From the NCBI RefSeq assembly GCF_032154225.1, contig NZ_JALDYF010000017.1, positions 23,394 through 87,393 of the forward strand: a stretch of DNA of 64,000 bases, read 5' to 3'. Positions 11,167 through 49,853 of this stretch are shown in pieces (positions within the stretch are counted from its first letter, which is position 1; each line of letters opens with the position of its first letter). The notes under the pieces are model-generated. The model saw only the letters and a program-made list of their open reading frames with translations, was not told the DNA's origin and made no database searches. The position numbers and the translations under genes were made by a program. Origin of the DNA: Psychrobacillus sp. Lineage in GTDB: Bacteria > Bacillota > Bacilli > Bacillales_A > Planococcaceae.

Positions 11167-11168
11167 AT

Positions 11169-34057: not shown

Positions 34058-34065
34058 TATTTTTA

Positions 34066-34098
34066 CCCCGTCCTGGAAACAGAACGGGGTTTAATTTG
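34066..34098 (+). terminator. terminator between convergent OLD and recombinase genes
   Basis: accccgt-cctggaaacaga-acggggt followed by T-rich sequence. Confidence 0.6.
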
Positions 34099-34174
34099 TA
34101 AAAAGTCTCTCAACATTATTTTTAATTCCTACATGTACTGAAAACTATTTACATGATTTAATTAAGAATAATAT

Positions 34175-35305: not shown

Positions 35306-35383
35306 GAATTACACCTCACATAATTTTACTACTAGTACTTTCAAATATTAGGACATACAATTCTACTAGTATTTATATAGATT

Positions 35384-36328
35384 TCACACAAGTAATTCAA
35401 CCAAAAGAGAGCTGGCTATTTCTCTCTTTGGAGTCCTTTTATTATATATAAGCATTCCCGATAAGGAGTTAAAAAAGAAATTTATCAAAACTAAAGTTTC
35501 AATGGGTGTCATAATATTACTAAAAAACAACGGTCTTTCTGAAATTTCTCTAAATAAGGCTGTATTATATCCTGATAACTCCAAAAACTCTATTCCATAA
35601 AATTCAACGATCTCCTTTTTAAGTTTTTTTACATCTATTTCTGAACCTATCACAAAACCCTTTTCAACAAACAGACGATAAAAGTCTTGCGATTGAATAC
35701 TGTTATAAAGATTTAATTTTACCCTATTAAGATAAAAACTTTGTTTAGCAAACAGTTTTACATAAAACATTGTTTTTTTAGTTAACGGTTCAAAAGAAAC
35801 TTCATTTAGTTCATTCATAGCAATAGTTTTAAAACCAATTTTATGATTGGGTATATCTATTCGATCTAAAGGTATTTTATGTTCTAAACAAATGAATAGG
35901 GTAGGTAATTGATGTGATAGTCTCCAAAAAGATTCCCCTAGGGTCTTGAAATCTTTTTGAGTGCAAACTGGACAATATTTTAGATACTTGTTTTCAGAAA
36001 AAATTTTGTCAACTACGTAAGCTTCAGCTTTACCAGTACCTTTCGTCAAATACAGGGACAGCCCACCGCTAATATTTGGAGATATAAAGTTTGAAATATA
36101 ATTACACATTGAATGAAAATTTAAGAAGTACTCTATATCAGGTGCATCGAAATACTTTAGTTCATCAATAAGATATTGAATATTCTTAGGAAGAAAAGGG
36201 TTCATTTCAGTTAAATGAAGTTCGTCAATCGTTTTATTCTCATTTTTATTTAAACTTCGTTCATGATATCTTGTGTAAACACTATATAATAACTCATCAT
36301 CTTGAATAACTGGAAAGAATGTAAGCAT
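35384..36328 (-). CDS. tniQ: short TniQ-family protein (truncated TnsD paralog)
   Basis: MLTFFPVIQDDELLYSVYTRY, zinc-finger YCPVCTQKD...ICLEHKIPL and FYGIEFLEL parallel the TnsD N-terminal half. AGAGGTGG RBS. Lacks the roughly 270-aa TnsD C-terminus. Confidence 0.75.
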   Translation of the reverse strand: MLTFFPVIQDDELLYSVYTRYHERSLNKNENKTIDELHLTEMNPFLPKNIQYLIDELKYFDAPDIEYFLNFHSMCNYISNFISPNISGGLSLYLTKGTGKAEAYVVDKIFSENKYLKYCPVCTQKDFKTLGESFWRLSHQLPTLFICLEHKIPLDRIDIPNHKIGFKTIAMNELNEVSFEPLTKKTMFYVKLFAKQSFYLNRVKLNLYNSIQSQDFYRLFVEKGFVIGSEIDVKKLKKEIVEFYGIEFLELSGYNTALFREISERPLFFSNIMTPIETLVLINFFFNSLSGMLIYNKRTPKREIASSLLVELLV

Positions 36329-36338
36329 ATAACCACCT

Positions 36339-38087
36339 CTAATGATTAAAATGATTTTTCTTTTTCCATTCATTAAGCCTTTCCTGATATTGAAATTTAG
36401 TCTCAACTATCAAGAGGATAAATTCTTTTGTTAAGGGTAGTTTGTCTATCTTTTTCTCTATTAGGGACAACTTATCGATTGCTATCGCGATGTGTCGTTT
36501 CGTTAATCGAACAGGTTTATCATTTATATCTAGAGTTATTAAGTAGTTTTTTATTTGTTCTAAAATCTCTAAGTCTCTCTCATTCCAGTTAACCCTTTGA
36601 TTATTTAAATGTGCTCTTTTCAATTGAGCAGGGGAGTTATTATCTAACCACGCTTTATCATTTCTATATAACCAAGTGTAGACTTTTTTATTTGAATTTC
36701 TGAGTTCTGTTTTGGAACAAGTAGGATTTGCTTCTTTATTTGTTATCCAAATAGAACGGTAATCATGAACCATTGAGGATTTTTCCACATGTATTTTAGG
36801 ATTAAGTTCATTTTTTTGCATTTTGTAATATTTAATAACTGTCCCCACATCTACATTTAGTAATATAGCAGCTTTGCGATAACTGATTTTTTCTGTATCA
36901 ATATACTCAATTAGTTTTTTCTTCCATACCTCACCGAAATTTCTAATGTATCTGTATCTAAACTTATCTTCTGGACCACAATCAGGACCAAGTCGCTTAT
37001 ACTGAAATTCACATAGACATGTAAAAGTCCCAAGTGGTTTCCCAGTATCAGTACATCTCTCTATTTTAAGATTTGTGACAATCATTTTTTTATAATGTTC
37101 AGCAGCAGGATTAAGACAAGGGTAGGGACCTTTACCAAAAGGTCCTTCATAATTTTCCTGCTTAAATGACTCAATTTCTTTTCCCAAAAAGTTTAATAAC
37201 AACAAATGTCTTACTGGATGAAATGAAATTCTATGCTTGCGAGTAATAGTTCTCAACCAACACGATTCTTTATTTTTGGGAACCGATTGGAAGAAACTTA
37301 AAAATTCAATACCATAAAAAGAGACAAACTTTCTATATAAATCTGCTTGTCTCACCCTTCCATTGATTGTGATTAAATCTTTCTTTCTTAGTAATTCTCT
37401 GTACATCGATACTAATTGCGTAATGTCAAAGCTTAATTCATCATCCAATAGTTTTTTACTTTCAATGGCAACCTTACTTATCTGATTAATTTTGCCACTA
37501 GATATAGTACCTTTAATACACTGATTTAAAGGGGTAGGGATACAATTTTCCTTACTAGGTGAAATCAGTTTTGAATTTTTATTTCTATATAAAACTGAAC
37601 TTAAATGTAGTAAACACTTATGATCGATACAAACTAAAACACTCGGGAGCTGATGCGAAGTCCGCCAGTATGATTCGCCAAGCTTTTTTAAATCGTATTC
37701 TAAACAAGAAGGACAATATTTAAAGAACTTAGATTCTCTTACAGTACTTGCTACCTGCCCAATCGACATGTGTATATTCTTCTTTTTGGCTTTACTTATT
37801 TCTTTCATTACTACTTCTTTTTGAGTCTTTATTAGGAGATTCGTGAAGTAATAAAAAGGCGTATGTTTGTAAATTAAGGTCTCCAAACTTTTATATTCAA
37901 AGACTTCAAGTTGTTCAACCAACACTTCTAGATTTGAAGGGAAGTCGGGTGTTAATTTGGATCTTTTACCTTGAAAACACTTTTCAAGAGTATTTCTAAT
38001 ACTAATGCTTGAACCTTTAGTAAAATATCTGGCGCAAAGACTGTATATTAACTCATCATCGTATGGCTTTGGAAACCAACCAAGCAA
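36339..38087 (-). CDS. tnsD: TnsD-like target selector (TniQ domain plus C-terminal DNA-binding region)
   Basis: MLGWFPKPYDDELIYSLCARY, YCPSCLEYD...CIDHKCLL, and a C-terminal HTH-like ISYRKAAILLNVDVGTVIKY. The element sits at glmS. Confidence 0.8.
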   Translation of the reverse strand: MLGWFPKPYDDELIYSLCARYFTKGSSISIRNTLEKCFQGKRSKLTPDFPSNLEVLVEQLEVFEYKSLETLIYKHTPFYYFTNLLIKTQKEVVMKEISKAKKKNIHMSIGQVASTVRESKFFKYCPSCLEYDLKKLGESYWRTSHQLPSVLVCIDHKCLLHLSSVLYRNKNSKLISPSKENCIPTPLNQCIKGTISSGKINQISKVAIESKKLLDDELSFDITQLVSMYRELLRKKDLITINGRVRQADLYRKFVSFYGIEFLSFFQSVPKNKESCWLRTITRKHRISFHPVRHLLLLNFLGKEIESFKQENYEGPFGKGPYPCLNPAAEHYKKMIVTNLKIERCTDTGKPLGTFTCLCEFQYKRLGPDCGPEDKFRYRYIRNFGEVWKKKLIEYIDTEKISYRKAAILLNVDVGTVIKYYKMQKNELNPKIHVEKSSMVHDYRSIWITNKEANPTCSKTELRNSNKKVYTWLYRNDKAWLDNNSPAQLKRAHLNNQRVNWNERDLEILEQIKNYLITLDINDKPVRLTKRHIAIAIDKLSLIEKKIDKLPLTKEFILLIVETKFQYQERLNEWKKKNHFNH

Positions 38088-38099
38088 TATAATCCCACC

Positions 38100-39734
38100 C
38101 TAAAATAGTTTATTATCCAAGAGTGGGGCTATTATTAATCCTTTTCCTACTAAGGAATCGTGAGCTGATTTCCTCTCTTTCCTACCATTATCAACAATTT
38201 TAAGAATTATATTCGATGAACGCTTATTTTTAGAATTATTATCAATTGCTTTTTTAGATGCCATACGTTCATTAATAAGAGTTAAAGCTGCCTGGACTGC
38301 CTCTTGTGGTGTGATTTCCTTATTTTCCTTAATAATTTTTTTTGCTGTCATTTCTGCCAACTTATCATTTATATCAAGATTCATTAATGTGAGAGTTACT
38401 ATTTGCAGAACAGACAAATCTTTTTGTTGCCTTTTTTCCGCTATTTTCTCTTTCTCTTTGCTTATCCTTTCTCTCATATTTATTGGGGTTTCTCTTTGCA
38501 AAAGAAAATCTTCAATATCAAAAGGGGTTATATCATCATATCTTACGATATCCTCTAATCTTCCTTCTCTTAAAGCCTTTAGCATAGGTTGCAGCATTTT
38601 CAAATATTTTTCGCCAACTATTTTTATCATGTTAGGAGAAATTTTATCATATCCTTCCTCCATTGCATAAGACTGTGCCAACATAAATAATTTAACTGCA
38701 ATATCTACTATTCCTTGGCTTTGATCATGAATTAATTCCATCCATTCTTTCGTTAACTCAACTTTCTCCTTAGTCCATTGATATGTCCACATTCTACTAA
38801 GTAAGACTTCCCAATTATCATCCATCTTCATTTGTTCCCAGATTAACTCACCATGGCCACCAGCTCTCCTAGCTTGTCGAAAATTAACTTGGAGTAATCG
38901 CTTTGCTTTAGTCGTCCCGATCAACACTATCGGAATTCCTATTTCATTTACTAAGGTAACCAAAAAATTCATCATACTACTTGAAACTTCCGACTTTGCT
39001 GTTAACATATGCTGAATCTCATCAATAACTAATACCCCTAGACAATGTGCCCTAGCTAATTGTCCTATATATATAATTAGATAACTTAATGATTCTCGTT
39101 TGTGACCCTGTTTAAAATAGTTTGTCCCTAAAGCCTCATCAATCTTTGTAATAAAATCTAAACATAACGTTTTTGGAGATCCATCATTTGGGCAGTTTAG
39201 TTTTAACCATGGTATCTGCATTATATTTAATGGGTATTTATGAATTATGACTTTAGGATAGAGAGATAGTATCCTCTCAATCGCTGATGATTTCCCCATT
39301 CCAGAAAAACCGATTATAGATAAGCTTGAAGCTGTTTTTCGAATGTCTGGTGGGAGTCCTATTGGTTCTTTTTTTTCTAATCTTCGATGCATTTCAATTA
39401 AGGTTTCAGCATGTGATTTGTTTTGAGGATTTCTATACATATACCCACTTCTTAATAATCCTGAAAAACGTGCTTCTAACGTCAATGTTTGTTCCAGTGG
39501 TTGATAAAATCGAGTTAGTCTCAAAAGTGCATGGTAACGATACTGGACGGATAGATTATTTTCTCTTTTGTCATATTCTGGGAGATAGCGTAGTTGTTCA
39601 TAAGCCTCATCAACAGAAAGCATAGGAGGAAGTGCTTCGATTAAGGGATTTCCCCGATAGTCTGGATTATCTTGTTCGGTATATTCCGCACTAATTGCAT
39701 ATTCTCCGTTTTCTAATTTAATTAGCTTTTTCAT
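38100..39734 (-). CDS. tnsC: TnsC-like AAA+ ATPase
   Basis: Walker A GFSGMGKSS and Walker B VLVIDEIQHM. The ATG overlaps the tnsB stop (ATGA). Confidence 0.85.
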   Translation of the reverse strand: MKKLIKLENGEYAISAEYTEQDNPDYRGNPLIEALPPMLSVDEAYEQLRYLPEYDKRENNLSVQYRYHALLRLTRFYQPLEQTLTLEARFSGLLRSGYMYRNPQNKSHAETLIEMHRRLEKKEPIGLPPDIRKTASSLSIIGFSGMGKSSAIERILSLYPKVIIHKYPLNIMQIPWLKLNCPNDGSPKTLCLDFITKIDEALGTNYFKQGHKRESLSYLIIYIGQLARAHCLGVLVIDEIQHMLTAKSEVSSSMMNFLVTLVNEIGIPIVLIGTTKAKRLLQVNFRQARRAGGHGELIWEQMKMDDNWEVLLSRMWTYQWTKEKVELTKEWMELIHDQSQGIVDIAVKLFMLAQSYAMEEGYDKISPNMIKIVGEKYLKMLQPMLKALREGRLEDIVRYDDITPFDIEDFLLQRETPINMRERISKEKEKIAEKRQQKDLSVLQIVTLTLMNLDINDKLAEMTAKKIIKENKEITPQEAVQAALTLINERMASKKAIDNNSKNKRSSNIILKIVDNGRKERKSAHDSLVGKGLIIAPLLDNKLF

Positions 39735-41881
39735 TTATCATTTCTTCCTTCGTTTGCAAATAATTGTTTAATTGATATTATAGATGAATTCTTCTCGTTA
39801 TTATTTTCAACTTGTATTATGGCACTAATCTTTTTTTGATTATTAATTTGTAAGTTAAATCCTTCTTCCTCACTTCTTTGAACTCGCTCTTCTCGTCTAT
39901 TATCCTTTATATTTTTCGTTCTTTTGGACTTACTTAGCGTTTTGTCCAACTTTTCCTCTTTGTTCTTATTTGCAGCTTTTACAATACTCTCGATATCAGA
40001 GTAAAAATTAAGTTCATTTTCTAATCGACTATGTTCAGTGTCTTTCATATCGTTATTTTCAAATTCTAATAGTTGATCAATTTCTTCGATAGTCTTATCC
40101 TTATATCTCACTTGATGATCTAAAAGAGTGCACGGAATAAAAAGATCCTCATCATTGGAATGTAAATAAATAACATTCAAATCTCTTGGATCATATGAAA
40201 ATTCTACCTTCCAACTTCCATCTCTCCTTGCTTTAGAAAACCATTGTTCATCGATCGCTCTAGGAGTGGTATAATACATTTTTTTATATCTAATTCCTTT
40301 TTCAGAGATAGTCACTTTATCTCGGGGTAATAAATAAAACTTTATTTTGTCGATATCATGTTTTTTAAGTTTGCCTGCAGCATTCTTTATTCCCCATTCC
40401 CAAAGCTTGATTGGTATAGGTTGGACGTTATCTTTTATTTGTTGCTCATTTCTAACATATTCTTTCATATAAAAATTATTGTTATAAAAAAGAATAAAAT
40501 TAATTAAGATTTGTGTGTATTCTTCGATATTAAGGCTTGCTTCTAGCCGATAATCTTTTGCTCCTCTCTCACCATGATCTTTGTGTACATAGCCAGGTAG
40601 AAACGGTTTGATTTTTTCTTGTGAAGTATCGAATAGTTTTTCAACTATCCCTTTCCAGTCCGGGCGATAGGGAGGGGTATTACTAATGTTAGGACCTAAT
40701 CCTTCAATCAAATGATCAACCCCGTGACTGGCTAATTCACCTCTATCACCAATGAAGTTATTTGGTAAATGCATAGACGGCCAAATATCTGTTGATATAT
40801 TTATCCCAAACTTTTTACAGTATTCTTTTTTGTCCATACAGGCATTTACTATTGCACTCATCATAGCTTTCCAAGAGGCATTTTCTAAACCCACGTAAAG
40901 ACCTACTATTAGATGTGTATACACATCTACGATGAAATAAGTGGTAGGTCGTCCGACAATCCAATTTGGGTTGAATCGATTGACTAAATATACGTTGCCC
41001 GGTGTTGCATCAATCTGATAAATATCTCCTGGTCCCTCTGTTTCCGCCGTAGAAGATCCTAATACGGCTCTATGGTTTTGTTCAAATTTCTTTAGACCTT
41101 CCCGTGCTATGGTGACTTTATCGTTTTTGTATTCTTTATTAAACCAGTAATAAAATTGCGTTTGAGAAGGTCTCTCTTCCTCCGGTTTAAGCACCAACCT
41201 TTCATTATTTGACTCGTCGAAGTATTTAAATTTTGTATAATAATCTCGGATCATCATCTTATAGGCAAAAATTAAAGATGGCTTTTTTAAGTTTAAGTAA
41301 TACTTTTTTACGGATTTAGAAAACTGTTCCTTTATTTCTGCAGTTATTATGATTCCCTTGACTCCATTCTTGTTAGGTCTTCCTGTTTTTTTCTTATATT
41401 CTTTGTCTGTATTTGTAAAATTAAAGTCTGGAAAAACTGAATCTTTCACCATTCCTCTTTGCCAATACTTTCTTATATTTTTATAAAAGGTATTTTTGGA
41501 TTTAATGTTATGCTTAATCATCGCTTCTTCAATTAATTTATAGCGATGACTCTTCTTGTAAATATCCGGTTCAATTCTTACTAAGTCTTTAATTATCATC
41601 CAAGTTTTATCTCTATGTTGAATATCTTTTTCTGTTGGCGACCTTTTTAATGCTACATTCTCATCTACTCGCAAGGTATATATTGCTGAATTGATTTGTT
41701 CTTCTATCTCCTTAGTAGTCATAATAAAAGGACTAGCATTAATAGCGGTAATATCTATTACATATGCAATTACATAACCACTATCAATCCATAAAATTCT
41801 ATATGCTTTATCTGTATCAACTTCTACAATGAGTTCATTAACTGATAGAGCTACCATAATTTTTGTTAACACTCCTTTCAT
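39731..41881 (-). CDS. tnsB: TnsB-like DDE transposase
   Basis: rve-type core: IYQIDATPGNVYLV, IGDRGELAS, and a downstream E. 716 aa. Start approximate. Confidence 0.85.
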   Translation of the reverse strand: MKGVLTKIMVALSVNELIVEVDTDKAYRILWIDSGYVIAYVIDITAINASPFIMTTKEIEEQINSAIYTLRVDENVALKRSPTEKDIQHRDKTWMIIKDLVRIEPDIYKKSHRYKLIEEAMIKHNIKSKNTFYKNIRKYWQRGMVKDSVFPDFNFTNTDKEYKKKTGRPNKNGVKGIIITAEIKEQFSKSVKKYYLNLKKPSLIFAYKMMIRDYYTKFKYFDESNNERLVLKPEEERPSQTQFYYWFNKEYKNDKVTIAREGLKKFEQNHRAVLGSSTAETEGPGDIYQIDATPGNVYLVNRFNPNWIVGRPTTYFIVDVYTHLIVGLYVGLENASWKAMMSAIVNACMDKKEYCKKFGINISTDIWPSMHLPNNFIGDRGELASHGVDHLIEGLGPNISNTPPYRPDWKGIVEKLFDTSQEKIKPFLPGYVHKDHGERGAKDYRLEASLNIEEYTQILINFILFYNNNFYMKEYVRNEQQIKDNVQPIPIKLWEWGIKNAAGKLKKHDIDKIKFYLLPRDKVTISEKGIRYKKMYYTTPRAIDEQWFSKARRDGSWKVEFSYDPRDLNVIYLHSNDEDLFIPCTLLDHQVRYKDKTIEEIDQLLEFENNDMKDTEHSRLENELNFYSDIESIVKAANKNKEEKLDKTLSKSKRTKNIKDNRREERVQRSEEEGFNLQINNQKKISAIIQVENNNEKNSSIISIKQLFANEGRNDK

Positions 41882-42746
41882 TAAAAATTATATCTGTCAG
41901 GTTTGTGTCATGGGGCTTTATTGGTTTTTCCATGTCGTATGTTTCAATATACTGGCGAGCATACAAATGTCTCATGTAATAAATACTCGAACCATCCTCG
42001 AGATTGTATAAAGAATCGAATTCACTACAACATGTAATTAACTGCTTTGTCGGATTCAACTTCAGCTCTCTGTATAAATAATCTAAGAAATGCAAACTCA
42101 TTTCTTCCTCTTGATTATTTTCAAGATAGTAATATACATGGATATATTTCATATTTTTTACAAATTGAGTCGACATGACCTTTTCATCAATTACAGACCA
42201 TTCTATATCCCTGTCTACCCAATATTGTCTTTCTATTTCTAGTTTCTCAAGGACACGAGGGTCTTCTAACTCACTACTAGGTTTTATAGAACGCGCAATT
42301 TGTATAATCTTATTGTCCACTCGGCTCGTTATAAGAAAATCAGTGGTCATAACAATATGTGTTTGAGTTGTAGTTTCAATGGAATGCTTAATGCCTTTAT
42401 CAGAAGCTATTTTTAGGGTATCCTCACGCTCAAGCGGAAATTGCTCTCTTATATCTATCACTTTTTTACTCCATTCCAAGTAATAAAAATAAGATAGTTC
42501 TAAATCAGATAGAAAATGATGTATTCTATTGGTTTTCCAACCCCTTGGCCGATGTGATCTACCTCTACTTGGCACCTCATTAATTTTCAGCCACGGTTGG
42601 TAATGATTTAATTCACCAGAACCTCTACCTTCCTTATAAAACCTAGCAATTTTTTCTTCTGTCCATGTATATTTATTTACTGACAAAATATCACCACCAA
42701 TCGACTTCTTTTCACTATTAATAACAAATATTCTGTCTATTTTCAA
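41838..42746 (-). CDS. tnsA: TnsA-like endonuclease
   Basis: GRGSGELNHYQPWLKINEVPSRGRSHR...HFLSDLELSYFYYLEW...IREQFPL matches the TnsA N-terminal catalytic pattern. The start is uncertain (TTG 42746, or TTG 42686 after GGTGGTGA). Confidence 0.8.
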   Translation of the reverse strand: MKIDRIFVINSEKKSIGGDILSVNKYTWTEEKIARFYKEGRGSGELNHYQPWLKINEVPSRGRSHRPRGWKTNRIHHFLSDLELSYFYYLEWSKKVIDIREQFPLEREDTLKIASDKGIKHSIETTTQTHIVMTTDFLITSRVDNKIIQIARSIKPSSELEDPRVLEKLEIERQYWVDRDIEWSVIDEKVMSTQFVKNMKYIHVYYYLENNQEEEMSLHFLDYLYRELKLNPTKQLITCCSEFDSLYNLEDGSSIYYMRHLYARQYIETYDMEKPIKPHDTNLTDIIFNERSVNKNYGSSIS

Positions 42747-43260
42747 GTGACAGGCAATTTAAAATCGTTTTTTGTGAAAATATTTGTAAATGTTGAATTG
42801 GATAGGTAAGTTCTAAATATTTATATAATCAGATAGTTGGTTTTTAAAAGTTTCCGTTTACTCGCAATGTTCTTTTCATGTCTCTGTTAATATCCAGGTA
42901 ATTCCGGCACTATTTCCTATACCTAATATCATTTTAGAATTTTTATCAACATATAAAACATTCCCCCACCATCATGATTAATGTTGGTGGGGGAGATGTT
43001 TTCGTATAACAACCAAGGCTGTGAAGGTACATGGAGGAATAAGGATTATCGGTCATTATTCTTCAAGAAGGTAAAGAAACTAATATAAATAGATATCTCG
43101 AGTTTAATGAAATTTAGATTAATACCACATTTATTAAGCGGATTTTTCTGGTGTCATCCCAGATTCTTATTTCCTTTATAGGAAAGTATTGTATACTCTT
43201 TATAATAACATTTAAATATAGTTCCAATTTATCAATATAGTTTATTAAGGAGGAAATATT

Positions 43261-45378
43261 TTGTACCTAAAGACTATCAGTTTAACAAATTTCCGGCAAT
43301 TTTCTGTAAAGGAAGATGAAACTCCAGGAATTACGGTCCAGTTTAGTCCTAAATTCAATGTAATTGTCGGAGAAAACGACTCTGGGAAAACTGCTATCAT
43401 TGATGCAATAAGATACCTTTTGGGAAGTATAAGTAATGATTTTGAAAAAATAAAGCAAGAAGATTTCTTTTGTTATGCAAAAGATAAATATACCGATAAT
43501 TTTTATATTGAAGGTACCTTTACATCGCTATCAGATAAAGAAGCTGGTCTATTTCTAGAGTGGCTCTCTTTCGATGAAAATGGGGACTATGAACTGAGAG
43601 TTTCTCTAAAAGTTGAGAGAAAAAGAAATGATAACGGTCAAGAGTATATTGATCAGAGAATTCAAGCTGGAGAAAAAAATTTCGAGTTTCGTTTAAGTAG
43701 TAAGGCTCGTGATTTATTGAAAACTACATATTTAAAACCCCTAAGAGACGCAGATACCGAATTAAAACCTGGAATTCGTTCTAGGCTGGCACAAATCTTA
43801 AAAGTCCATCCAGCCTTTAAAAAAGAATCTAGTGAAACCAATCACAGCTTAGAACAAATAATGCAAGAAGCAAATGATAAAGTCGAGGGATTTTTTAAAG
43901 AAGATTATGTTGAAGACCATTCTCTAGTATCTGATATTGAAAGTTTACTAAGTGATTTTTATGACAATAAAGATCAAAATAAGGCAAAAACTAATTTTTC
44001 AGTATCATCAACTGATCTATCTTCTATATTAAGAAAATTAAGTATCAATACTGAAGATGTTAATTTGGGATTAGGTAATATGAATCTATTGTTCATAGCA
44101 ACTGAACTTTTACTACTGAACGACTATGTAGAAAGCAGTGAGTTAGTAGGTCCCCATATCACATTGATAGAAGAGATAGAAGCCCACTTACATACACAAG
44201 CACAAATTAGATTAATTAAGTATTTGGAAGAAGAATTAGAATCAAATTCACAAAGAGCAGGTCAATTCATTTTAACCTCTCATAGCACAAATTTGGTATC
44301 TTCTATAGACCCTAAAAATATTATTTTTATACAGGGTAATGTAGCCTATCCCATGAGAAGAGAATTTTCCGAACTTGAAGATAACGATTTTGAGTTTCTA
44401 GAAAGATTCTTGGATGCTACGAAAAGTAATCTATTTTTTGCTAAAGGTGTGATATTTGTAGAAGGTGATTCAGAAATGTTGCTGATACCAGCTCTTGCTA
44501 ACTTTATTGGGTACCCACTGCATAAGTATGGAATATCTCTAGTTAATGTAAGAGGAACATCTTTTGAAAGATATATTAAGCTGTTTTCAAGATCAACTTT
44601 GTGGAAAGAATCCATGAAACTACCAAGTATCACGACTCCAATAGCAATTATTACAGACATAGATGTTAAGCCTTGGGTTTATTATGAGCAAGAAGAAAAA
44701 AACAAAGCAATTTATTCAATTTTGAACGAAGAAGAATTGGATGAATTATTGACCATTTGCAATATATCAAGAGAAAAAATAATTGAAGAAAACATTGGAA
44801 ACGAATATTCCACACTAAAAAAATTAGCAAACGACTTCAAATTTGAAATAAGTAGTCAGAATACTGACTACTTAGAAAAAATAGCAAAGAAAGAAATCAC
44901 TCCGGAGTATATTAATGCTTGTTCAAGAGATAAGTTTAGACAAATTGAGGATAAATATGAAAAGTATGATGCAAATTTGAAATTATGTATAGCCCCCCAA
45001 TGGACTTTGGAATACTGTCTTGCTTTAAGTTCACTTGCACCTATATTGTTAGAGGCTGTCCAAGAAATTCGCTACAAGAAGCCTTATGAAGGTAAACAGT
45101 ATGAAGTGTTCCAAAGTTTAATGAGTGAATTTGATAAAGGGACTCTTGAAACAGAAAAAATAGCATATGAGATTTTTAAACCTATAAATAACAAATTGGT
45201 TTCAAAAGCTGAAGTTGCACAGACACTAGCTGTTAAGTTAAATAATTTAACCAAGGAAGAGGTTAAACATATGGAATGGAAGGAAAAAATCAATTGCGAT
45301 GAAAATCTGAAATACCTTATTAATGCAATAAAACACACTTCAAGTATTATTGGAAGTGAGTCGAATGAAGATGAGTGA
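43261..45378 (+). CDS. OLD-family ATPase-Toprim nuclease, GajA-like (class 2, helicase-linked)
   Basis: Walker A GENDSGKTA, LKPLRDA, IEEIEAHLH and TSHS. The Toprim region has VIFVEGDSEMLLIP and ITDIDV. AAGGAGG RBS plus a TTG start. Confidence 0.75.
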   Translation: MYLKTISLTNFRQFSVKEDETPGITVQFSPKFNVIVGENDSGKTAIIDAIRYLLGSISNDFEKIKQEDFFCYAKDKYTDNFYIEGTFTSLSDKEAGLFLEWLSFDENGDYELRVSLKVERKRNDNGQEYIDQRIQAGEKNFEFRLSSKARDLLKTTYLKPLRDADTELKPGIRSRLAQILKVHPAFKKESSETNHSLEQIMQEANDKVEGFFKEDYVEDHSLVSDIESLLSDFYDNKDQNKAKTNFSVSSTDLSSILRKLSINTEDVNLGLGNMNLLFIATELLLLNDYVESSELVGPHITLIEEIEAHLHTQAQIRLIKYLEEELESNSQRAGQFILTSHSTNLVSSIDPKNIIFIQGNVAYPMRREFSELEDNDFEFLERFLDATKSNLFFAKGVIFVEGDSEMLLIPALANFIGYPLHKYGISLVNVRGTSFERYIKLFSRSTLWKESMKLPSITTPIAIITDIDVKPWVYYEQEEKNKAIYSILNEEELDELLTICNISREKIIEENIGNEYSTLKKLANDFKFEISSQNTDYLEKIAKKEITPEYINACSRDKFRQIEDKYEKYDANLKLCIAPQWTLEYCLALSSLAPILLEAVQEIRYKKPYEGKQYEVFQSLMSEFDKGTLETEKIAYEIFKPINNKLVSKAEVAQTLAVKLNNLTKEEVKHMEWKEKINCDENLKYLINAIKHTSSIIGSESNEDE

Positions 45379-47239
45379 GAAGTGCTTAGCGGATATAACG
45401 CCTTTAATTTTACCAAACGGCTGTTCATTTTTCCCTCAACAAGTAAACGCAATAGAAGTCGCTGGCTCTGCCAATATAGTTGCTGGCCCTGGTTCAGGTA
45501 AAACCACTGTTCTAATTGCAAAATGTGCGCTGTTACTCTCTAAACAAAAGAGCACAGATAGAGGTATTTGTCTCATAACGCATACAAATGTAGCTGTTGA
45601 TGAAATAAAAATGGGGCTAAAAAAAATTGGAATCAATGATGTTTCATATCCGAATTTTATTGGTACCATACAAGAATTTTTTAACAGTTTTTTTACGAGA
45701 AAGGCTTTCTACTTAGTTCACAAAGACAAACATTTTAGAGTGATTGATGATGAAGAATACAAAAAAAAGTTTGGCGCTTTATTCGATAAAAAAAAGCCTG
45801 ATTGGTATACTTACCCGACTCCGAACATAACAAGAGCACTTCCAAAACTAATAATAAATGATGACTACTCTTACACGATTATAAGTCAAGCAAACCAAAG
45901 TTATAGATCTGAATTTAACGAGTGTCTGAAAATGTTATTTAATTGGGGTTTAGTAAATAACGAACAATGTTTGGAGCTCTCTAAATGGTATATAGAAAAA
46001 AATCAAGAGAAAATAATTAGTTCTATTAAACACAGATTCGAATATTTACTTTTGGATGAAGCCCAGGACACAAGTGAATTGCAGTATAATCTATTAAAAA
46101 AGCTTTTTTCTTCTCCAGATATCGTTTTTCAAAAGTTCGGTGATCCATACCAATCCTTATATAGTATTTTTGATGGCAATAGGGATGCTTGGAAGCCAAG
46201 TGAGGAATTTGAAAGTTGCGGTTTATCCTATGAAGAAATTTCGGAGACTTCTCGTTTTGGCTCAAGTATTTCAGAATTAGTTAAAAATATTTGTATAGAA
46301 AAATATGACACTTTTACTTCTTTAAATTTGGTTGATTCGTTCAATCCACACTATATAATTTATGAGAGCGAAAATGATTTACTTGAACAATATAAATCAC
46401 TAATTAATTACTGTACTCTTCAATCTACCGAGTATTCGAAATCTCGAAAGAAAGATGCTATAATATCCGCTTTCCATGAAGATTTGAGTAGTATTTTTAC
46501 TTCATATAATAAGCCTACTACTAAAGTTAGAAATATTGAAAGTATTGTAAGGAAATGCTACAACTTTTTTATTGACCTATTGTCTAAAGAATTGGATTTA
46601 TCTTCTGATGATCTAATGAAAAAAGTTGAAGAGGAGCTTATTTATAAAGTGATTCTCAGTAAATGTGTTAAAGAAATTAATTCCGAAAATTTTATTGGGG
46701 ATTTTATAATTTGGGATTTAGAAAGGATTATCCAAAAAATAACTGGTATTGAAGATGCGTGCTTTAAGAATATTGATGCTGAAGCACAAATAAAATATCT
46801 ATATCACACAATTGTCAATACAAAAACAGAAAAGCAGCTTGAAACCACTGAAACTGAGAATCTAAATTTCAGTATTGGAACAATTCATTCAGCTAAGGGT
46901 GAGACCCACAGATCAACTATGTTGGTATTGAATACTGTCTTCAAAGATCGTACAATGAAACCAACTTATAGAATGATCGACTTATTAAAAGAATATTTAG
47001 TAGGCAAATACTCGGATCCCTATTCAGTAAAAGAGGACTTAAAAAGAGATGAAATGATAAAAAGTTTAAAACTTGCCTATGTTGCATTGAGCCGCCCAAC
47101 CCATTTAGCAGTAATTGCAATACCAAATGAAATGATTTTCGGTCAAGAAGAACTAATTACTGAATTAAATGACAGTGGCTGGAAAAGTTTAGAATCTTAC
47201 AAGAATGAAATTTTAGAGGATCTTATGACATCAGGCTGA
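45365..47239 (+). CDS. UvrD/Rep-like SF1 helicase, GajB-like
   Basis: AGPGSGKTTVL, LLLDEAQDTS and TIHSAKGETHRSTM motifs. The start overlaps the upstream stop. Confidence 0.75.
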   Translation: MKMSEKCLADITPLILPNGCSFFPQQVNAIEVAGSANIVAGPGSGKTTVLIAKCALLLSKQKSTDRGICLITHTNVAVDEIKMGLKKIGINDVSYPNFIGTIQEFFNSFFTRKAFYLVHKDKHFRVIDDEEYKKKFGALFDKKKPDWYTYPTPNITRALPKLIINDDYSYTIISQANQSYRSEFNECLKMLFNWGLVNNEQCLELSKWYIEKNQEKIISSIKHRFEYLLLDEAQDTSELQYNLLKKLFSSPDIVFQKFGDPYQSLYSIFDGNRDAWKPSEEFESCGLSYEEISETSRFGSSISELVKNICIEKYDTFTSLNLVDSFNPHYIIYESENDLLEQYKSLINYCTLQSTEYSKSRKKDAIISAFHEDLSSIFTSYNKPTTKVRNIESIVRKCYNFFIDLLSKELDLSSDDLMKKVEEELIYKVILSKCVKEINSENFIGDFIIWDLERIIQKITGIEDACFKNIDAEAQIKYLYHTIVNTKTEKQLETTETENLNFSIGTIHSAKGETHRSTMLVLNTVFKDRTMKPTYRMIDLLKEYLVGKYSDPYSVKEDLKRDEMIKSLKLAYVALSRPTHLAVIAIPNEMIFGQEELITELNDSGWKSLESYKNEILEDLMTSG

Positions 47240-47365
47240 TTTCCCCAACTGATCAACGCGAATATTGATTTTACCGAATGAAAGCTTCTGGAAATCTGTG
47301 CTTGAAGAAATATCGTGAAAATGTATTAACTAGTAATAATATGATTCCAATATGGAGGTTTATCT

Positions 47366-47827
47366 ATGAGCAAAAAAATAATTGAGCAAATGAAGAGATG
47401 GCCACGCAATTTGAGTACATCACAGGGAGGAGGGTTATCTACTTCCCAATATGGAGGGATGTCTACCTCCCAATACGGAGGCATGTCTACCTCTCAATAC
47501 GGAGGCATGTCTACCTCCCAATACGGCGGCATGTCTACCTCCCAATATGGAGGTCTTTCTACCTCCCAATATGGGGGTCTTTCTACCGCACAATATGGAG
47601 GTCTGTCCACTGCTCAATACGGTGGTCTGTCCACTGCTCAATATGGGGGCTTATCGACATCCCAAGGAGGAGGTATGTCTACCTCTTCAGGTAATGTATA
47701 CATGAGTAATATTCCACCTTGGCCAGTATTTGTAAGAGAGCTTGAGGAAAGAGGATATAATAATGAGGCTAATTTAATTCGGAGACATTTACCTGAGTTC
47801 CTTTGGCCAGAAAACTTCTTCAAATAA
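47366..47827 (+). CDS. tandem octapeptide-repeat protein (G-[LM]-S-T-[SA]-Q-Y-G x12) with short unique termini
   Basis: GGAGG 7 nt before the ATG. Repeat-unit differences are almost all synonymous. A terminator follows at 47907. Confidence 0.65.
47408..47695 (+). repeat. 12 tandem 24-bp coding repeats
   Basis: Units such as ggcatgtctacctcccaatacgga, contiguous with no spacers. Confidence 0.9.
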
Positions 47828-47906
47828 TTCCATCTAATACAAGTATCTACTCATGTTGAAAATCATTAAGCAAGAGGGACACGATAGTTAAAAAACACAC
47901 ATTGAT

Positions 47907-47937
47907 GAGCAGGTGCTACGTAGCCTGCTCTTTTTTA
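47907..47937 (+). terminator. rho-independent terminator
   Basis: gagcagg-tgctacgtag-cctgctc followed by tttttt. Confidence 0.75.
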
Positions 47938-48216
47938 TTAAACTAACGCAGCAGTTTAGTTTAAAAAGGAGAAGCACACTCTTTTGTTGAATAGAAATAA
48001 AGCACCTTTCTTTAATGAAAGGTATTGATTAAGAGGATTAATTTGTTCAATAGAATATTGGGAACGGAATATGGATGGAGAGTGATTTAAATGGGAATCG
48101 GTAATTTGGCACAAAAAGGAGTTGTAGTTATTTTTGTCGAAGTGTAGATGAAGATTAGTAATAAAAAGAAAAACAGAAAATTAGATAGTCGAGTTTAACT
48201 AAACTGGGAGAAAGTA

Positions 48217-49116
48217 GTGAATTATAATATGACTAGTAAAAATTCTATTTTTAAAAAACCTTACAACCTTATAGATAATGCTCCAAAAGTTATTGCATGG
48301 GAAGATTACGAAAGAAATTTACTTAAAGATTATGAGATCCTATTAAAAGAACATGGAGACGAAGAAGATGTTTTTCAAGAATTTTTTGAGAAAAACCCAT
48401 CACTATTACCAGGAGCTTTTGGAATTTATGGTGAATCTGGTCATGCTCCATATAATAATGCTTTAATTACTCAACCATTACTTCAAGGTTTAACAACTAA
48501 AATACCTGATTTTTTGTGGATTGCTTCAGATAGTGGAACAATTTATCCAATTTTTATAGAGATAGAAAAACCTAATAAAAAATGGTTTAGAAACGATGGA
48601 CAACCAACAGCAGAATTTACTCAAGCTCAAACTCAACTTAGTGATTGGAAAATGTGGTATTCAAATCCTAATCACCAAAGTCTTTTTTATCAGTATTACG
48701 ACATAGATGGGGAAATAGCGAGGGGGAAAGCGATTAAGCCACAATTTGTTTTAATTTACGGGTCTAGAAGTGAATTTAGTGGGAAACCTGATTTAAATCA
48801 AAAAAGATCGCAATTAGTGCGAGAAAATGAAATATATATGACCTTTGATAGATTAACACCTAATATCAAAGCAAGAAATACCATTACTTGTAAAGTGAAA
48901 AATAGGAATTATGTTGCTAAATTTGTTCCACCAACATTTAGATTAGGGCCTGTATTTGCTGAGGAATTAAGTAAAATAGATAATAATGAAGAAGCTATTA
49001 ATAATTCTCAAATAGATGATATTCGAAAAGAATTTCTTATTTCCAGACTTAAATATTGGATGGATTTTGGCAAAAGACAACCAAGAGGATTGAGAAATTC
49101 AGGAGATTGGGAATAA
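48217..49116 (+). CDS. Shedu-like PD-(D/E)xK nuclease (DUF4263-type domain)
   Basis: FQEFFEKNPSLLPG, IPDFLW...IFIEIEKP (D...ExK), QLSDW, PQFVLIYGSRSEF and IYMTFDRL follow the order I recall for SduA C-terminal domains. GTG start after GGGAG. Confidence 0.6.
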   Translation: MNYNMTSKNSIFKKPYNLIDNAPKVIAWEDYERNLLKDYEILLKEHGDEEDVFQEFFEKNPSLLPGAFGIYGESGHAPYNNALITQPLLQGLTTKIPDFLWIASDSGTIYPIFIEIEKPNKKWFRNDGQPTAEFTQAQTQLSDWKMWYSNPNHQSLFYQYYDIDGEIARGKAIKPQFVLIYGSRSEFSGKPDLNQKRSQLVRENEIYMTFDRLTPNIKARNTITCKVKNRNYVAKFVPPTFRLGPVFAEELSKIDNNEEAINNSQIDDIRKEFLISRLKYWMDFGKRQPRGLRNSGDWE

Positions 49117-49173
49117 ACCTTTTGTTATTCGAAGTAAGGCTGCGTTTTGTTAAAAATTCTCCTAACCAAAAAA

Positions 49174-49211
49174 ACAGCAGTTCCCAAGTATATTGGAGCT
49201 GCTGATTTTTT
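49174..49211 (+). terminator. rho-independent terminator
   Basis: cagcag...ctgctg stem followed by attttttat. Confidence 0.55.
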
Positions 49212-49332
49212 ATATTATCGGATTAAAGGCTTAGTAATTGTAAAGCGGCATTTTCCTGAAGCTACTCCTAAAAAAGGAAAGAAAAAACGCTCAGAGAAAT
49301 ATTCTCTAAGCGTTTTTTCATGTTATTTAAAA

Positions 49333-49551
49333 TTAGAATGTTAATTCGTTATATTCAATCCACTTTTCTTTTTCGCGCTCTACCGCTCGGTTTTGCCATT
49401 CAAACCATACATATGCACATTCACTACAATGACTTTCTACACCACTATTATTGTGCATATCTCTACAGGTAAATAAGGTCTTTTTACGACAGTTGTAGCA
49501 ATAAATTACTTTTTCATCACTTCTTATTATCAAAATTATCGTTCCCTCCAT
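49333..49551 (-). CDS. small zinc-ribbon protein
   Basis: CYNC...18 aa...CSEC forms a four-Cys pattern. A hairpin terminator at 49282-49319 lies downstream. Alternative TTG start at 49533. Confidence 0.5.
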   Translation of the reverse strand: MEGTIILIIRSDEKVIYCYNCRKKTLFTCRDMHNNSGVESHCSECAYVWFEWQNRAVEREKEKWIEYNELTF

Positions 49552-49733
49552 TATACAATATTTATTGTCTATTACTTGGCTACTTATACTTTAAACAAAT
49601 AATTTAATAAATATATTGGATAGTTAATAACTTTGATGAAGGAATCATTCTTAAAGGTGTTTTAATGTTCTATATCTTTTTTGAACAACTTAATCATCTC
49701 CACACTTTTTTTATAAATATCAATAGACAAATG

Positions 49734-49766
49734 AAAAAAACTGGTTAGTTAATCTAACCAGTTTTT
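49734..49766. terminator. bidirectional terminator just inside the right end
   Basis: aaaaaaa-ctggttag-ttaat-ctaaccag-ttttt. Confidence 0.7.
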
Positions 49767-49853
49767 ACGTCACGTTTGAGTTGTTCACGTCACGACTAAG
49801 TTGTATACGTCACGCTTGAGTTATTTACGTCACGATTGAGTTGTATGCAAACA
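49767..49853 (+). repeat. transposon right end: four contiguous 20-bp TnsB-type sites plus terminal GCAAACA
   Basis: ACGTCACGtTTGAGTTGTTc, ACGTCACGacTAAGTTGTat, ACGTCACGcTTGAGTTaTTt and ACGTCACGaTTGAGTTGTat with an exact 20-bp period. Confidence 0.85.

What the first reader, a model, noticed from the sequence alone, without database searches (positions are those of the whole stretch)
47366..47827. Protein built from 12 tandem G-[LM]-S-T-[SA]-Q-Y-G octapeptides, embedded between Gabija-like and Shedu-like genes
Residues 15-110 of this 153-aa ORF are 12 contiguous 8-aa units, 9 of which carry the SQYGG core. A 14-aa basic N-terminus and a 43-aa unique C-terminus ([39 protein letters not shown]) flank the repeat. 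The 24-bp DNA units differ mostly at synonymous third positions (Gly gga/ggg/ggc/ggt, Leu tta/ctt/ctg, Tyr tat/tac, Ser tct/tcc/tcg). This points to selection on the peptide rather than a DNA-level repeat. The frame has a good SD (GGAGG, 7 nt) and its own terminator. I saw no terminator in the 127-nt gap after the helicase gene, so it could be a third gene of that operon. The S/T/Y/Q/G composition with [S/Q]-Y-G-G motifs resembles eukaryotic low-complexity (FUS-like or CTD-like) domains, which are multivalent and phosphorylatable. I know of no defense-system component like this. Possible roles such as decoy substrate, sensor, scaffold or condensate former are speculation.
Basis: partly seen in the sequence, partly recalled or inferred. 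Interest (0 to 1): 0.8.

Follow-up and report, generated by a model that had tools for sequence, protein, structure and literature searches.

The report
Fixed 12-unit glycine-repeat defence-island protein
This is a real, highly conserved small gene of unknown function found across nearly all bacterial phyla, almost always among anti-phage and mobile-element genes; it stands alone rather than belonging to Gabija or Shedu, and its 12 octapeptide repeats look like a fixed-length folded domain, not a floppy low-complexity tail.

Summary
ORF 47366-47827 (+) encodes 153 aa with 12 in-frame octapeptides, a GGAGG Shine-Dalgarno 7 nt upstream and its own terminator. It matches Pfam PF20080 ("ALTTAQ repeat"), an already catalogued family. 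I found no paper on it, and public sources call it "hypothetical protein". Relatives occur in at least 151 species genomes and 510 metagenome stretches. Gene GC3 tracks host GC (r=0.89) while the peptide stays nearly fixed, which means strong purifying selection.

It has no constant neighbour. True Gabija is adjacent in 5 of about 140 loci and Shedu only here. Neighbours are a changing set of defence and mobile-element genes. In this window the gene is cargo of an 18.8-kb Tn7-like transposon at attTn7.

The FUS-like reading is not supported. In a sample selected on the C-terminus alone, 88% of complete genes have exactly 12 units. Unit-specific L/M/A residues are conserved across phyla, GG-[LM]-S-T is invariant, and Tyr is dispensable. 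Secreted relatives carry a Cys pair at the base of the array. One in-register AlphaFold2 model is confident (pLDDT 90.5), non-alpha/non-beta, and has no structural analogue.

Best reading: a standalone, non-enzymatic binding protein acting in phage or mobile-element conflict. That function is inferred, not shown.

The parts
47354..47358 (+). Shine-Dalgarno GGAGG, 7 nt upstream of the ATG
   Evidence: Read directly from the sequence. The 20 nt at 47347-47366 also resemble a repeat unit (family D2).
47366..47827 (+). CDS of the 153-aa repeat protein, a member of Pfam PF20080 (ALTTAQ_rpt)
   Evidence: ORF list and translation. Pfam hit E=1.6e-16, 60.1 bits against a 26.4-bit cut-off. Full-length homologs in many phyla.
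47399..47410 (+). N-terminal anchor W12-P13-R14-N15, invariant in the family
   Evidence: Invariant columns in alignments A4 and A5. Both AF2 runs pair residues 12-13 with 113-114 in a beta-bridge. Secreted relatives have a Cys just before this motif.
47411..47698 (+). Array of 12 octapeptide units (residues 16-111) with first-residue pattern LLMMMMLLLLLM
   Evidence: TRF. Unit parsing. 12 units in 66/75 genes selected on the C-terminus. Position statistics on 122 unique arrays.
47699..47824 (+). C-terminal domain (residues 112-153): Y-x-SNIPPWP, then two AF2-predicted helices (119-128 and 132-141, both runs; a short third helix only in the first run), ending LWPENFF
   Evidence: AF2 block-mean pLDDT 75-84 (first run) and 86-97 (second run) over residues 121-153. 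60-86% identical across phyla. HMMER over 1.84 billion representatives finds it almost only in this architecture.
47907..47937 (+). Intrinsic terminator-like hairpin (GAGCAGGTGCTACGTAGCCTGCTC) plus T-run
   Evidence: Terminator scan.
43261..47239 (+). Gabija pair upstream: gajA 43261-45378 and gajB 45350-47239 (context, not a partner)
   Evidence: PADLOC GajA E=6e-210 and GajB E=1e-214; Pfam domains.
48217..49116 (+). Shedu sduA downstream (context, not a partner)
   Evidence: PADLOC SduA E=9e-132. Identical to WP_313894168.1, Psychrobacillus sp..
31097..49853 (.). Tn7-like transposon carrying the gene as cargo. Left end 31097-31126. tniQ/tnsD/tnsC/tnsB/tnsA at 35384-42746 (-). Right end has four ~20-nt TnsB-type repeats at 49764-49844 and terminates ...ACA at 49853, 26 bp from the glmS stop.
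   Evidence: Repeat families D3, I3, I13 and I22. Tns Pfam hits. Left-side cargo annotation. glmS and its ribozyme.

Best explanation
The ORF is a standalone accessory gene that moves with defence islands and mobile elements. Here it is cargo of a Tn7-like transposon. It encodes a small non-enzymatic protein of the Pfam PF20080 family. Shown: it is a real gene under strong purifying selection in nearly all bacterial phyla, it has no obligatory gene partner, and its neighbours are predominantly anti-phage or mobile-element genes. Inferred from sequence statistics and one AF2 model: the 12 octapeptides form a fixed-length, compact, glycine-rich domain that is neither alpha nor beta. Its two ends are clamped together by the N-terminal WPRN strand and the small C-terminal helical domain. 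One residue per unit (L/M/A) occupies a unit-specific place, probably the core. Positions 4-5 of every unit form a uniform, lineage-specific surface stripe. Proposed mechanism (inference): the protein binds a repetitive or multivalent target through that periodic surface and acts stoichiometrically as a blocker, decoy or sensor in phage or mobile-element conflict, independently of Gabija and Shedu. My step-wise probabilities: real conserved gene 0.99; independent of Gabija/Shedu 0.85; folded rather than disordered array 0.65; role in phage/MGE conflict 0.5; periodic-ligand binding 0.25.
For: Family and selection. There are 276 hits with identical architecture, at least 151 species genomes, 510 metagenome stretches and at least 1256 clusters in the wider superfamily. 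GC3 tracks flank GC with r=0.89 and slope 1.06 over 30-70% GC. Standalone status. All-vs-all clustering of neighbours in 172 loci finds no family in more than 9 loci. No conserved small ORF lies beside it. The window has its own SD and terminator, and on plasmid pAJ_068-3 the gene is transcribed divergently from its neighbours. Defence and MGE context. Pfam and PADLOC scans of the +-1 neighbours return TIR_2, CAP12-TIR, ThsB-TIR, bSEFIR, GajA/B, Old/AriA, HerA, SoFic, CapP, mad3, type I/II R-M, RVT_1, Abi_C, Schlafen, patatin, integrases and transposases, and this is replicated in an independent metagenome sample. By my reading, 11 of 12 fully annotated contexts hold defence or MGE genes within 8-10 kb. 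Carriers include a Tn7-like transposon, a plasmid and a few prophage-like contigs. Folded array. 12 units in 66/75 genes. Position 1 identity is 0.86 between proteins at the same unit index against 0.44 within a protein, and positions 4-5 show the reverse; S2, T3, G7 and G8 are invariant. Shorter alleles lose only central L-units. Secreted relatives have a signal peptide and a Cys pair flanking the array, matching the AF2 beta-bridge 12-13/113-114. The in-register AF2 model has pLDDT 90.5 and pTM 0.84.
Against: There is no functional evidence of any kind; the defence role rests on guilt by association. I could not compute a formal defence score against a genomic background. Some loci sit in mostly housekeeping DNA (L181; L093 apart from its Gabija pair). 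Only the best of five AF2 models is confident (90.5, 70.4, 44.6, 44.0, 41.8). A run with mixed repeat numbers gave pLDDT 50.6. AF2 is documented to over-predict confident structures for perfect repeats (PMC11795689). I could not inspect coordinates. Foldseek found no analogue, so the fold cannot be corroborated. The protein matches no PADLOC model.
Confidence: 0.45

Rival explanations
1. Disordered, FUS-like or prion-like low-complexity protein. It would work by multivalent Tyr/Gln contacts, forming condensates or serving as a phosphorylatable scaffold.
For: The S/T/Q/Y/G composition is seen directly. The first AF2 run left residues 15-84 below pLDDT 50. Three of five models in the second run also failed.
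Against: Array length is fixed at 12 units. Unit-index-specific L/M/A residues are conserved across phyla, and four positions per unit are invariant. Family members exist without any Tyr (P0087 has 12 x STSSGGG; P0072 is mostly STALGGG). GPGGG-type and secreted, Cys-stapled relatives also exist. Disordered regions normally tolerate length and sequence drift.
Confidence: 0.15
2. Accessory third subunit or regulator of the adjacent Gabija system (or of Shedu), co-transcribed with gajAB.
For: No terminator lies in the gajB-ORF gap. Gabija is adjacent in five independent loci, with GajA directly downstream on the same strand in L007, L009 and L093. OLD-family ATPases are the single most frequent neighbour family (9 loci).
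Against: More than 95% of family members have no Gabija nearby. Gene order is not conserved: the gene lies after gajB here and before gajA elsewhere. The GajA proteins involved are only about 30-35% identical to the window's, and L093 gave no GajB tblastn match. Shedu is adjacent only in this window. Gabija and Shedu are described as complete without such a gene (established knowledge of these systems).
Confidence: 0.07
3. Orphan immunity or inhibitor protein. It would be a small binder that neutralises a secreted or injected enzyme or toxin, with cytoplasmic and periplasmic versions matched to the compartment of the target.
For: The protein is small and non-enzymatic. Both cytoplasmic and signal-peptide versions exist. 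It sits in variable, integrase- and transposase-rich regions.
Against: No polymorphic-toxin, Rhs, CDI or T6SS genes appear among about 900 clustered neighbours or in the Pfam summaries.
Confidence: 0.1
4. Stress protein of the ice-binding, cryoprotective or hydrophilin type. The octapeptide array would present Ser/Thr/Tyr ladders as in ice-nucleation or antifreeze repeats.
For: The octapeptide period with S-T and Y-G resembles the INP octamer (my recollection of AGYGSTxT, not tested). Several hosts are psychrophiles: Psychrobacillus, Psychrobacter, Pseudomonas psychrophila, Polaromonas, Psychroserpens and Gelidibacter. Repeat-only tblastn hits fall on proteins annotated as ice nucleation protein.
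Against: There is no Pfam ice-nucleation hit. The main clade has no signal peptide. Hosts also include mesophiles and gut bacteria: Muribaculaceae, Xanthomonas, Bradyrhizobium and Acinetobacter. The variable positions 4-6 change to L, R, N, D, G or P in other lineages. The genomic context is defence and MGE, not stress regulons.
Confidence: 0.05
5. Multi-core RiPP precursor. The N-terminus would be a leader, the 12 units repeated core peptides, and the C-terminus a recognition or follower sequence.
For: The architecture is repeated cores between conserved ends. A radical-SAM gene lies about 4 kb away in L092, and a SPASM-domain gene about 7 kb away on the Paenibacillus plasmid.
Against: No maturase, protease or exporter recurs near the gene in 172 loci. 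There is no NCBIfam match to rSAM-associated Gly-rich precursors. The C-terminal domain is predicted folded and is the most conserved part.
Confidence: 0.03
6. The 24-bp array functions at the DNA or RNA level, as iterons or as a VIPR-like or CRISPR-like guide array, and the ORF is incidental.
For: It is a tandem DNA repeat inside a defence locus. VIPR systems use tandem-repeat RNAs (preprint 10.64898/2026.04.26.720920).
Against: The peptide is conserved while synonymous sites and GC3 drift with the host. The N- and C-terminal protein domains are conserved across phyla. VIPR arrays are described as alternating GGY/NN motifs (a 5-nt unit by my reading) partnered with a RAMP-related Vipr protein on phages; neither feature is present here.
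Confidence: 0.01

Closest known systems
Pfam PF20080 'ALTTAQ repeat' family (uncharacterised)
   Same: The window protein scores 60.1 bits against a 26.4-bit gathering cut-off. Most full-length homologs carry the precomputed PF20080 label.
   Different: The Pfam entry models only the repeat. I found no paper naming it, and no functional name is given by any source. The WPRN anchor, the C-terminal helical domain, the fixed 12-unit length, the positional L/M/A code and the defence-island context are described here from my own analysis.
Glycine-rich PPII / polyglycine-II bundle domains (snow-flea antifreeze protein, phage S16 gp38 adhesin tip, Obg N-domain)
   Same: These are compact, glycine-rich folds that DSSP scores as neither helix nor strand. 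The confident AF2 model of the array has the same character. An even number of short up-down segments would bring the array ends together, as predicted. This comparison rests on my own knowledge of those structures and on papers listed.
   Different: Those bundles have Gly at every third residue. The SQY-type unit G-G-[LM]-S-T-S-Q-Y does not, although the GPGGG-type relatives are closer. Foldseek found no match to any PDB entry. I could not inspect coordinates.
Single-gene or small accessory genes of defence islands found by guilt by association (the approach of Doron 2018 and Millman 2022)
   Same: It is embedded among known defence systems in many unrelated genomes, and carried on transposons, plasmids and prophages.
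   Different: It has no enzymatic, nucleotide-binding or membrane domain. It matches none of the 5027 PADLOC models. No phenotype is known.
Eukaryotic FUS-type low-complexity domains, the RNAPII CTD, and prion oligopeptide repeats (PrP PHGGGWGQ, Sup35 PQGGYQQYN)
   Same: Short G/S/Q/Y-rich tandem repeats, with an octapeptide period as in PrP (my own knowledge).
   Different: Here copy number, register and unit-specific residues are conserved across phyla, and Tyr is dispensable. That argues for a defined fold, not a sticker-spacer polymer.

Membership tests
Pfam PF20080 ALTTAQ_rpt | Score above the curated gathering threshold of the family HMM | tested here: met
   60.1 bits against 26.4; E=1.6e-16; 3 matched stretches.
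Pfam PF20080 ALTTAQ_rpt | Shares full-length architecture with proteins labelled PF20080 | tested here: met
   Alignments A1, A4 and A5 share the WPRN anchor, the octapeptides and the SNIPPWP...LWPENFF C-terminus.
Gabija system (GajA + GajB) | The component co-occurs consistently with GajA/GajB in a conserved operon | tested here: not met
   GajA+GajB is adjacent in 5 of about 140 loci with variable gene order. No PADLOC Gabija model matches the protein.
Shedu system (SduA) | The component co-occurs consistently with an SduA/DUF4263 gene | tested here: not met
   SduA_C occurs once among 66 downstream neighbours, and that one is the window itself. tblastn with the window SduA finds it only in copies of this locus.
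FUS-like / prion-like low-complexity domain | Compositional bias to G/S/Q/Y with regularly spaced aromatic stickers | tested here: inconclusive
   The window protein has the bias. However, family members lack Tyr entirely (P0087, P0072), or place it at a different position in the unit (GGGLYTGP types).
FUS-like / prion-like low-complexity domain | Intrinsic disorder, meaning no conserved length, register or position-specific residues | tested here: not met
   12 units in 66/75 genes. Position 1 is unit-index specific, 0.86 against 0.44. One AF2 model reaches pLDDT 90.5, although the others are low.
Ice-nucleation / antifreeze repeat proteins | Match to the ice-nucleation octamer family, and secretion or outer-membrane display | tested here: not met
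   No such Pfam hit at E<=0.01. The main clade has no signal peptide (sequences). Ice binding itself is not testable with these tools.
PPII / polyglycine-II helical bundle domains | Gly at every third residue, and bundles of PPII helices in the structure | tested here: inconclusive
   The G-x-x periodicity is absent from the SQY-type unit (direct reading). AF2 gives a confident array that is neither helix nor strand.
RiPP precursor peptides | A conserved neighbouring maturase, protease or exporter | tested here: not met
   No recurrent neighbour family in 172 loci. No NCBIfam precursor model matches.
VIPR guide-RNA arrays | Non-coding array of alternating GGY/NN motifs (5-nt unit by my reading) partnered with a RAMP-related Vipr protein | tested here: not met
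   Here the period is 24 nt and the array is coding and conserved at protein level, with no RAMP neighbour.
Tn7-like transposon (the carrier element, not the gene) | TnsA, TnsB, TnsC and TnsD/TniQ genes; terminal TGT...ACA ends with multiple TnsB-site repeats; insertion just downstream of glmS | tested here: met
   Pfam hits to TnsA-like, Mu-transposase C-terminal, TniB/AAA_22, TnsD and TniQ. End repeats at 31097-31126 and 49764-49853. glmS stop at 49879 and the glmS ribozyme.

The most novel reading that the evidence does not exclude
The family is a previously unrecognised single-gene player in phage or mobile-element conflict. It would be built on a protein fold not yet seen in the PDB: a closed, fixed-length, 12-unit glycine-rich array with a lineage-specific periodic surface. 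It would act by stoichiometric binding, not by catalysis.
Probability: 0.3. Interest if true: 0.8.

Novelty: new member of a known kind. Interest (0 to 1): 0.6.

Why it matters
If the inference holds, this would be one of the most widely distributed uncharacterised genes in bacterial defence islands. It occurs in at least 151 species genomes across most bacterial phyla, including candidate phyla radiation lineages, plus one archaeal MAG. It is only about 150 aa, has no enzymatic domain, and may have a fold with no solved analogue. It is small and easy to clone, so a phage-challenge screen and a structure determination would settle it quickly. The repeat also shows an unusual evolutionary pattern. 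Within one array, one position keeps a unit-specific identity across phyla, while two others are uniform within each protein and differ between lineages. That makes it a natural system for studying how tandem repeats evolve under structural constraint. On the practical side, gene callers often truncate the gene to a ~50-aa fragment, so it is under-annotated.

Tried and rejected
1. Conserved partner. I clustered +-4/5 neighbours all-vs-all in 82 and then 172 loci. I ran Pfam and PADLOC on the +-1 neighbours and on an independent metagenome sample. I also searched for small ORFs. None of these revealed a partner.

2. HTH + Peptidase_M78 (+/- Fic) lies directly upstream in L180 and L181. phmmer against all neighbours shows it is only sporadic in the main clade.

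3. A ~383-aa upstream protein appeared in four loci. Three are the same organism, and it corresponds to the CAP12-type TIR hits.

4. Ribbon-helix-helix reading of the C-terminal domain. There were only insignificant NikR hits (E about 0.9) and no RHH family in a permissive Pfam scan.

5. Structural analogues. Foldseek against PDB and BFVD gave nothing below E=1. Profile searches of PDB sequences gave nothing.

6. NCBIfam and PHROGs gave no meaningful hit.

7. Phage GenBank records gave no match. Most plasmid hits were repeat-only matches to giant exoproteins.

8. A homology search with the C-terminus alone returned mostly ~50-aa truncated gene calls, so it did not give the unbiased repeat-number sample I wanted. 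The metagenome scan did.

9. VIPR-type RNA array was ruled out.

10. Literature searches by Pfam name and accession and by ten sequence motifs found nothing relevant.
Full report
OBSERVATION. ORF 47366-47827 (+) translates to a 153-aa protein. It has an 11-residue basic N-terminus, the motif W12-P13-R14-N15, and twelve contiguous octapeptides. These are [16 protein letters not shown], four [16 protein letters not shown], three [16 protein letters not shown] and MSTSSGNV. The tail is [42 protein letters not shown]. Tandem Repeats Finder reports a 24-nt period with 10.3 copies and 82% matches. GGAGG lies 7 nt upstream of the ATG. A GC-rich hairpin plus T-run follows at 47907-47930, and no terminator-like site lies in the 126-nt gap after gajB. 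Among units 2-11, pairwise codon differences are 148 synonymous against 54 non-synonymous. The description is accurate apart from details: six units are SQYGG and three are AQYGG.

IT IS A CATALOGUED BUT UNCHARACTERISED FAMILY. The protein hits Pfam PF20080 "ALTTAQ repeat" at 60.1 bits against a 26.4-bit cut-off. It has no PADLOC, NCBIfam or PHROGs match. Full-text searches for the Pfam name and accession and for ten diagnostic peptide strings found no relevant paper. Every public source name I saw is "hypothetical protein".

DISTRIBUTION AND SELECTION. A search of 5.8 billion proteins gave 276 hits with the same three-part architecture. A scan of one genome per species found 151 species encoding a relative. 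They span Pseudomonadota, Bacteroidota, Planctomycetota, Acidobacteriota, Cyanobacteria, Bacillota, Saccharibacteria, Omnitrophota and Riflebacteria, plus one archaeal MAG. A metagenome scan with a C-terminus-only profile found 510 occurrences. The C-terminal 46 aa are mostly 60-86% identical across these phyla. The gene's GC3 follows the GC of the flanking DNA with slope 1.06 and r=0.89 over hosts of 30-70% GC. So the DNA has adapted to each host while the peptide has been held nearly constant. That indicates strong purifying selection, not a recent sweep of one DNA segment.

HMMER over 1.84 billion representatives with the C-terminal 51 aa found only 61 representatives, almost all under 200 aa and with this architecture. 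A profile of divergent members shows a wider superfamily of at least 1256 clusters. These members use GPGGG-[LM]-[YS]-T units with the same WPR[ND] and SNIPPW anchors.

NO FIXED PARTNER, BUT A DEFENCE AND MOBILE-ELEMENT NEIGHBOURHOOD. I called ORFs in all loci and clustered the +-4/5 neighbours all-against-all. With 82 sources and then 172 loci, the largest neighbour family was OLD-type ATPases, in 9 loci. A large (~1,050-aa) neighbour family came next with 6 loci; I did not annotate it, but type I restriction R-subunit domains occur among the neighbours. True GajA+GajB pairs are adjacent in only five loci: L007, L009, L012, L093 and the window. Gene order varies, and the GajA proteins are only about 30-35% identical to the window's. 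SduA is adjacent only here. No conserved small ORF lies beside the gene.

Pfam and PADLOC scans of the immediate neighbours return a changing set of defence proteins. These include TIR_2, CAP12-TIR, bSEFIR, SoFic, GajA/B, Old/AriA, HerA, CapP, mad3, type I/II R-M, reverse transcriptase, Abi_C, BrnA, Schlafen and several PDC candidates, along with integrases, transposases and resolvases. An independent sample of 140 metagenomic neighbours gave the same picture, with no family present more than twice.

Fully annotated examples show the range:
- a TIR protein directly downstream (L001);
- a Cas9 island (L002);
- an HTH-RT-DUF4062 module, RelE/ParE and an MspI R-M system on Acinetobacter plasmid pAJ_068-3, where the gene is transcribed divergently from both neighbours;
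- TCAD9/S_4TM;
- type I R-M plus an AAA_15/21 ATPase;
- a Gabija pair inside otherwise housekeeping DNA;
- a dynamin-like GTPase cluster with NERD-UvrD, WYL and YoeB;
- integrase and transposase clusters;
- HTH-M78 (+/- Fic) directly upstream.

The gene is absent from 50,697 GenBank phage records. It is present on two plasmids. It is also on four IMG/VR contigs, some of whose ORFs match phage structural and replication families.

THE WINDOW'S ELEMENT. The host is a Psychrobacillus sp., since the SduA is identical to WP_313894168.1; a glmS ribozyme and a Bacillus sRNA are also present. Four tandem ~20-nt repeats (TTTACGTCACGnTTGAGTTGT) at 49764-49844 end in ...ACA at 49853, 26 bp from the glmS stop. 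An inverted copy beginning TGT lies at 31097-31126. Between these ends lie, in order: DUF6037; a second OLD-family ATPase; a tyrosine integrase; tniQ, tnsD, tnsC, tnsB and tnsA; gajA and gajB; the repeat gene; and sduA. The gene is therefore cargo of one 18.8-kb Tn7-like transposon at attTn7.

THE ARRAY BEHAVES LIKE A FOLDED DOMAIN. In the metagenome sample selected on the C-terminus alone, 66 of 75 complete genes have exactly 98 residues (12 units) between WPRN and SNIPPW. This sample may be enriched for the window's sub-clade. The first residue of each unit follows a pattern conserved across phyla: L-L-M-[A/M]-[L/M]-M-L-L-L-L-L-M. Shorter alleles (11, 10, 9 or 8 units) lack units only from the central L-run.

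On 122 distinct 12-unit arrays:
- position 1 is 0.86 identical between proteins at the same unit index, but only 0.44 between units within a protein;
- positions 4 and 5 show the reverse (0.90 and 0.95 within a protein, 0.50 and 0.71 between proteins), with lineage-specific types SQY, AQY, LQY, ALY and SLY, and GP, GV or LR in distant relatives;
- S2, T3, G7 and G8 are invariant;
- Tyr at position 6 is replaced by Gly specifically in units 1 and 11, and is absent altogether from some members (P0087, P0072).

Several divergent relatives carry signal peptides, together with a Cys just before WPR[ND] and another just before SNIPPW. This placement matches the beta-bridge between residues 12-13 and 113-114 predicted in both AF2 runs. 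It implies that the two ends of the array are clamped together.

AF2 with mixed repeat numbers left the array unmodelled, at mean pLDDT 50.6. With an in-register alignment of 27 twelve-unit sequences, the best model reached pLDDT 90.5 and pTM 0.84. In that model the array scores about 88-94 but is neither helix nor strand by DSSP. The five models disagree (90.5, 70.4, 44.6, 44.0, 41.8). AF2 is known to over-predict confident structures for perfect repeats (PMC11795689), and I could not inspect coordinates. Foldseek found no analogue in PDB or BFVD, and profile searches of PDB sequences found nothing. I therefore rate "folded, fixed-length glycine-rich domain" at about 0.65, resting more on the evolutionary statistics than on AF2.

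MECHANISM. Three things are shown: a conserved standalone gene, non-enzymatic by every domain search, that travels with defence islands and mobile elements. Two things are inferred. First, the array is a compact closed domain in which position 1 of each unit occupies a unit-specific place (probably the core) and positions 4-5 form a uniform periodic stripe that differs between lineages. Second, that surface binds a repetitive or multivalent target, so the protein acts stoichiometrically as a blocker, decoy or sensor in phage or mobile-element conflict, independently of Gabija and Shedu. The last step is speculative, at about 0.25.

RIVALS:
- FUS-like condensate former (0.15);
- orphan immunity or inhibitor protein (0.10);
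- Gabija or Shedu accessory subunit (0.07);
- cryoprotective or ice-binding protein (0.05);
- RiPP precursor (0.03);
- RNA- or DNA-level array such as VIPR (0.01).
Evidence for and against each is given in the rival section.

VERDICT. The gene is a member of an existing but functionally blank Pfam family. The Gabija/Shedu-component and FUS-like interpretations are not supported. What remains interesting is a pan-bacterial, defence-island-associated small protein with a fixed 12-unit glycine-rich array, an unusual positional code, no structural analogue and no known function. All of this is readily testable.

Noticed in passing
window 31097-49853: A complete Tn7-like transposon sits at attTn7, 26 bp downstream of glmS. 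Defence cargo lies on both sides of the tns genes, including between tnsA and the right end. It carries both a TnsD-like and a second TniQ-family gene, plus an internal tyrosine integrase (34175-35305, -).
   Followed up: partly
window 31465-34057: A second OLD-family ATPase (AAA_15/AAA_21 + TOPRIM, 32351-34057) is preceded by a DUF6037 gene (31465-32052) at the left end of the transposon. This may be another two-gene defence module. It was not classified further.
   Followed up: no
window 47347-47366 and 47411-47698: The 5' leader, including the SD, resembles a repeat unit (CCAATATGGAGGT...). Gly-Gly is mostly encoded GGA-GGN, so the mRNA carries several internal GGAGG Shine-Dalgarno-like motifs, some directly before Met codons. 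This may explain why gene callers start the gene at the last Met.
   Followed up: no
family-wide (P0179-P0259; e.g. P0200 Pseudomonas psychrophila against L014): Public annotations frequently truncate this gene to a ~50-aa product starting at the Met of the last unit. The window's exact 153-aa protein is missing from the 15-billion-protein collection, although Logan assembly contigs encode it.
   Followed up: partly
window 51750-51923 (-) and 11168-11361 (-): A glmS ribozyme lies upstream of glmS, and a Bacillus sRNA ncr1575 homolog is present (Rfam).
   Followed up: no
window 26655-28648: A BlaI/BlaR1-type (Penicillinase_R + Peptidase_M56) regulator pair lies just outside the transposon.
   Followed up: no
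window 49281-49319 and 49736-49766 (-): Two strong terminator-like hairpins lie on the minus strand between sduA and glmS, the second overlapping the start of the Tn7 right-end repeats. A 65-aa ORF at 49147-49344 has no Pfam hit.
   Followed up: no
L181 6618-8324; L180 6745-8381: In GPGGG-type relatives the gene directly follows an HTH + Peptidase_M78 gene, which is fused to Fic in L181 (M78-Fic gene ends at 8000, this gene starts at 8001). CapP-like and SoFic hits also occur among -1 neighbours of the main clade. This could point to a CapH/CapP-style regulator or to a Fic link with the Ser/Thr-rich array.
   Followed up: partly
plasmid hits H3-H20: The repeat region alone gives 40-49% tblastn matches to giant Gly/Thr-rich exoproteins of Rhizobium and Cereibacter plasmids, annotated as heme utilization protein, large exoprotein or ice nucleation protein. 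These are probably compositional matches, not homology.
   Followed up: no
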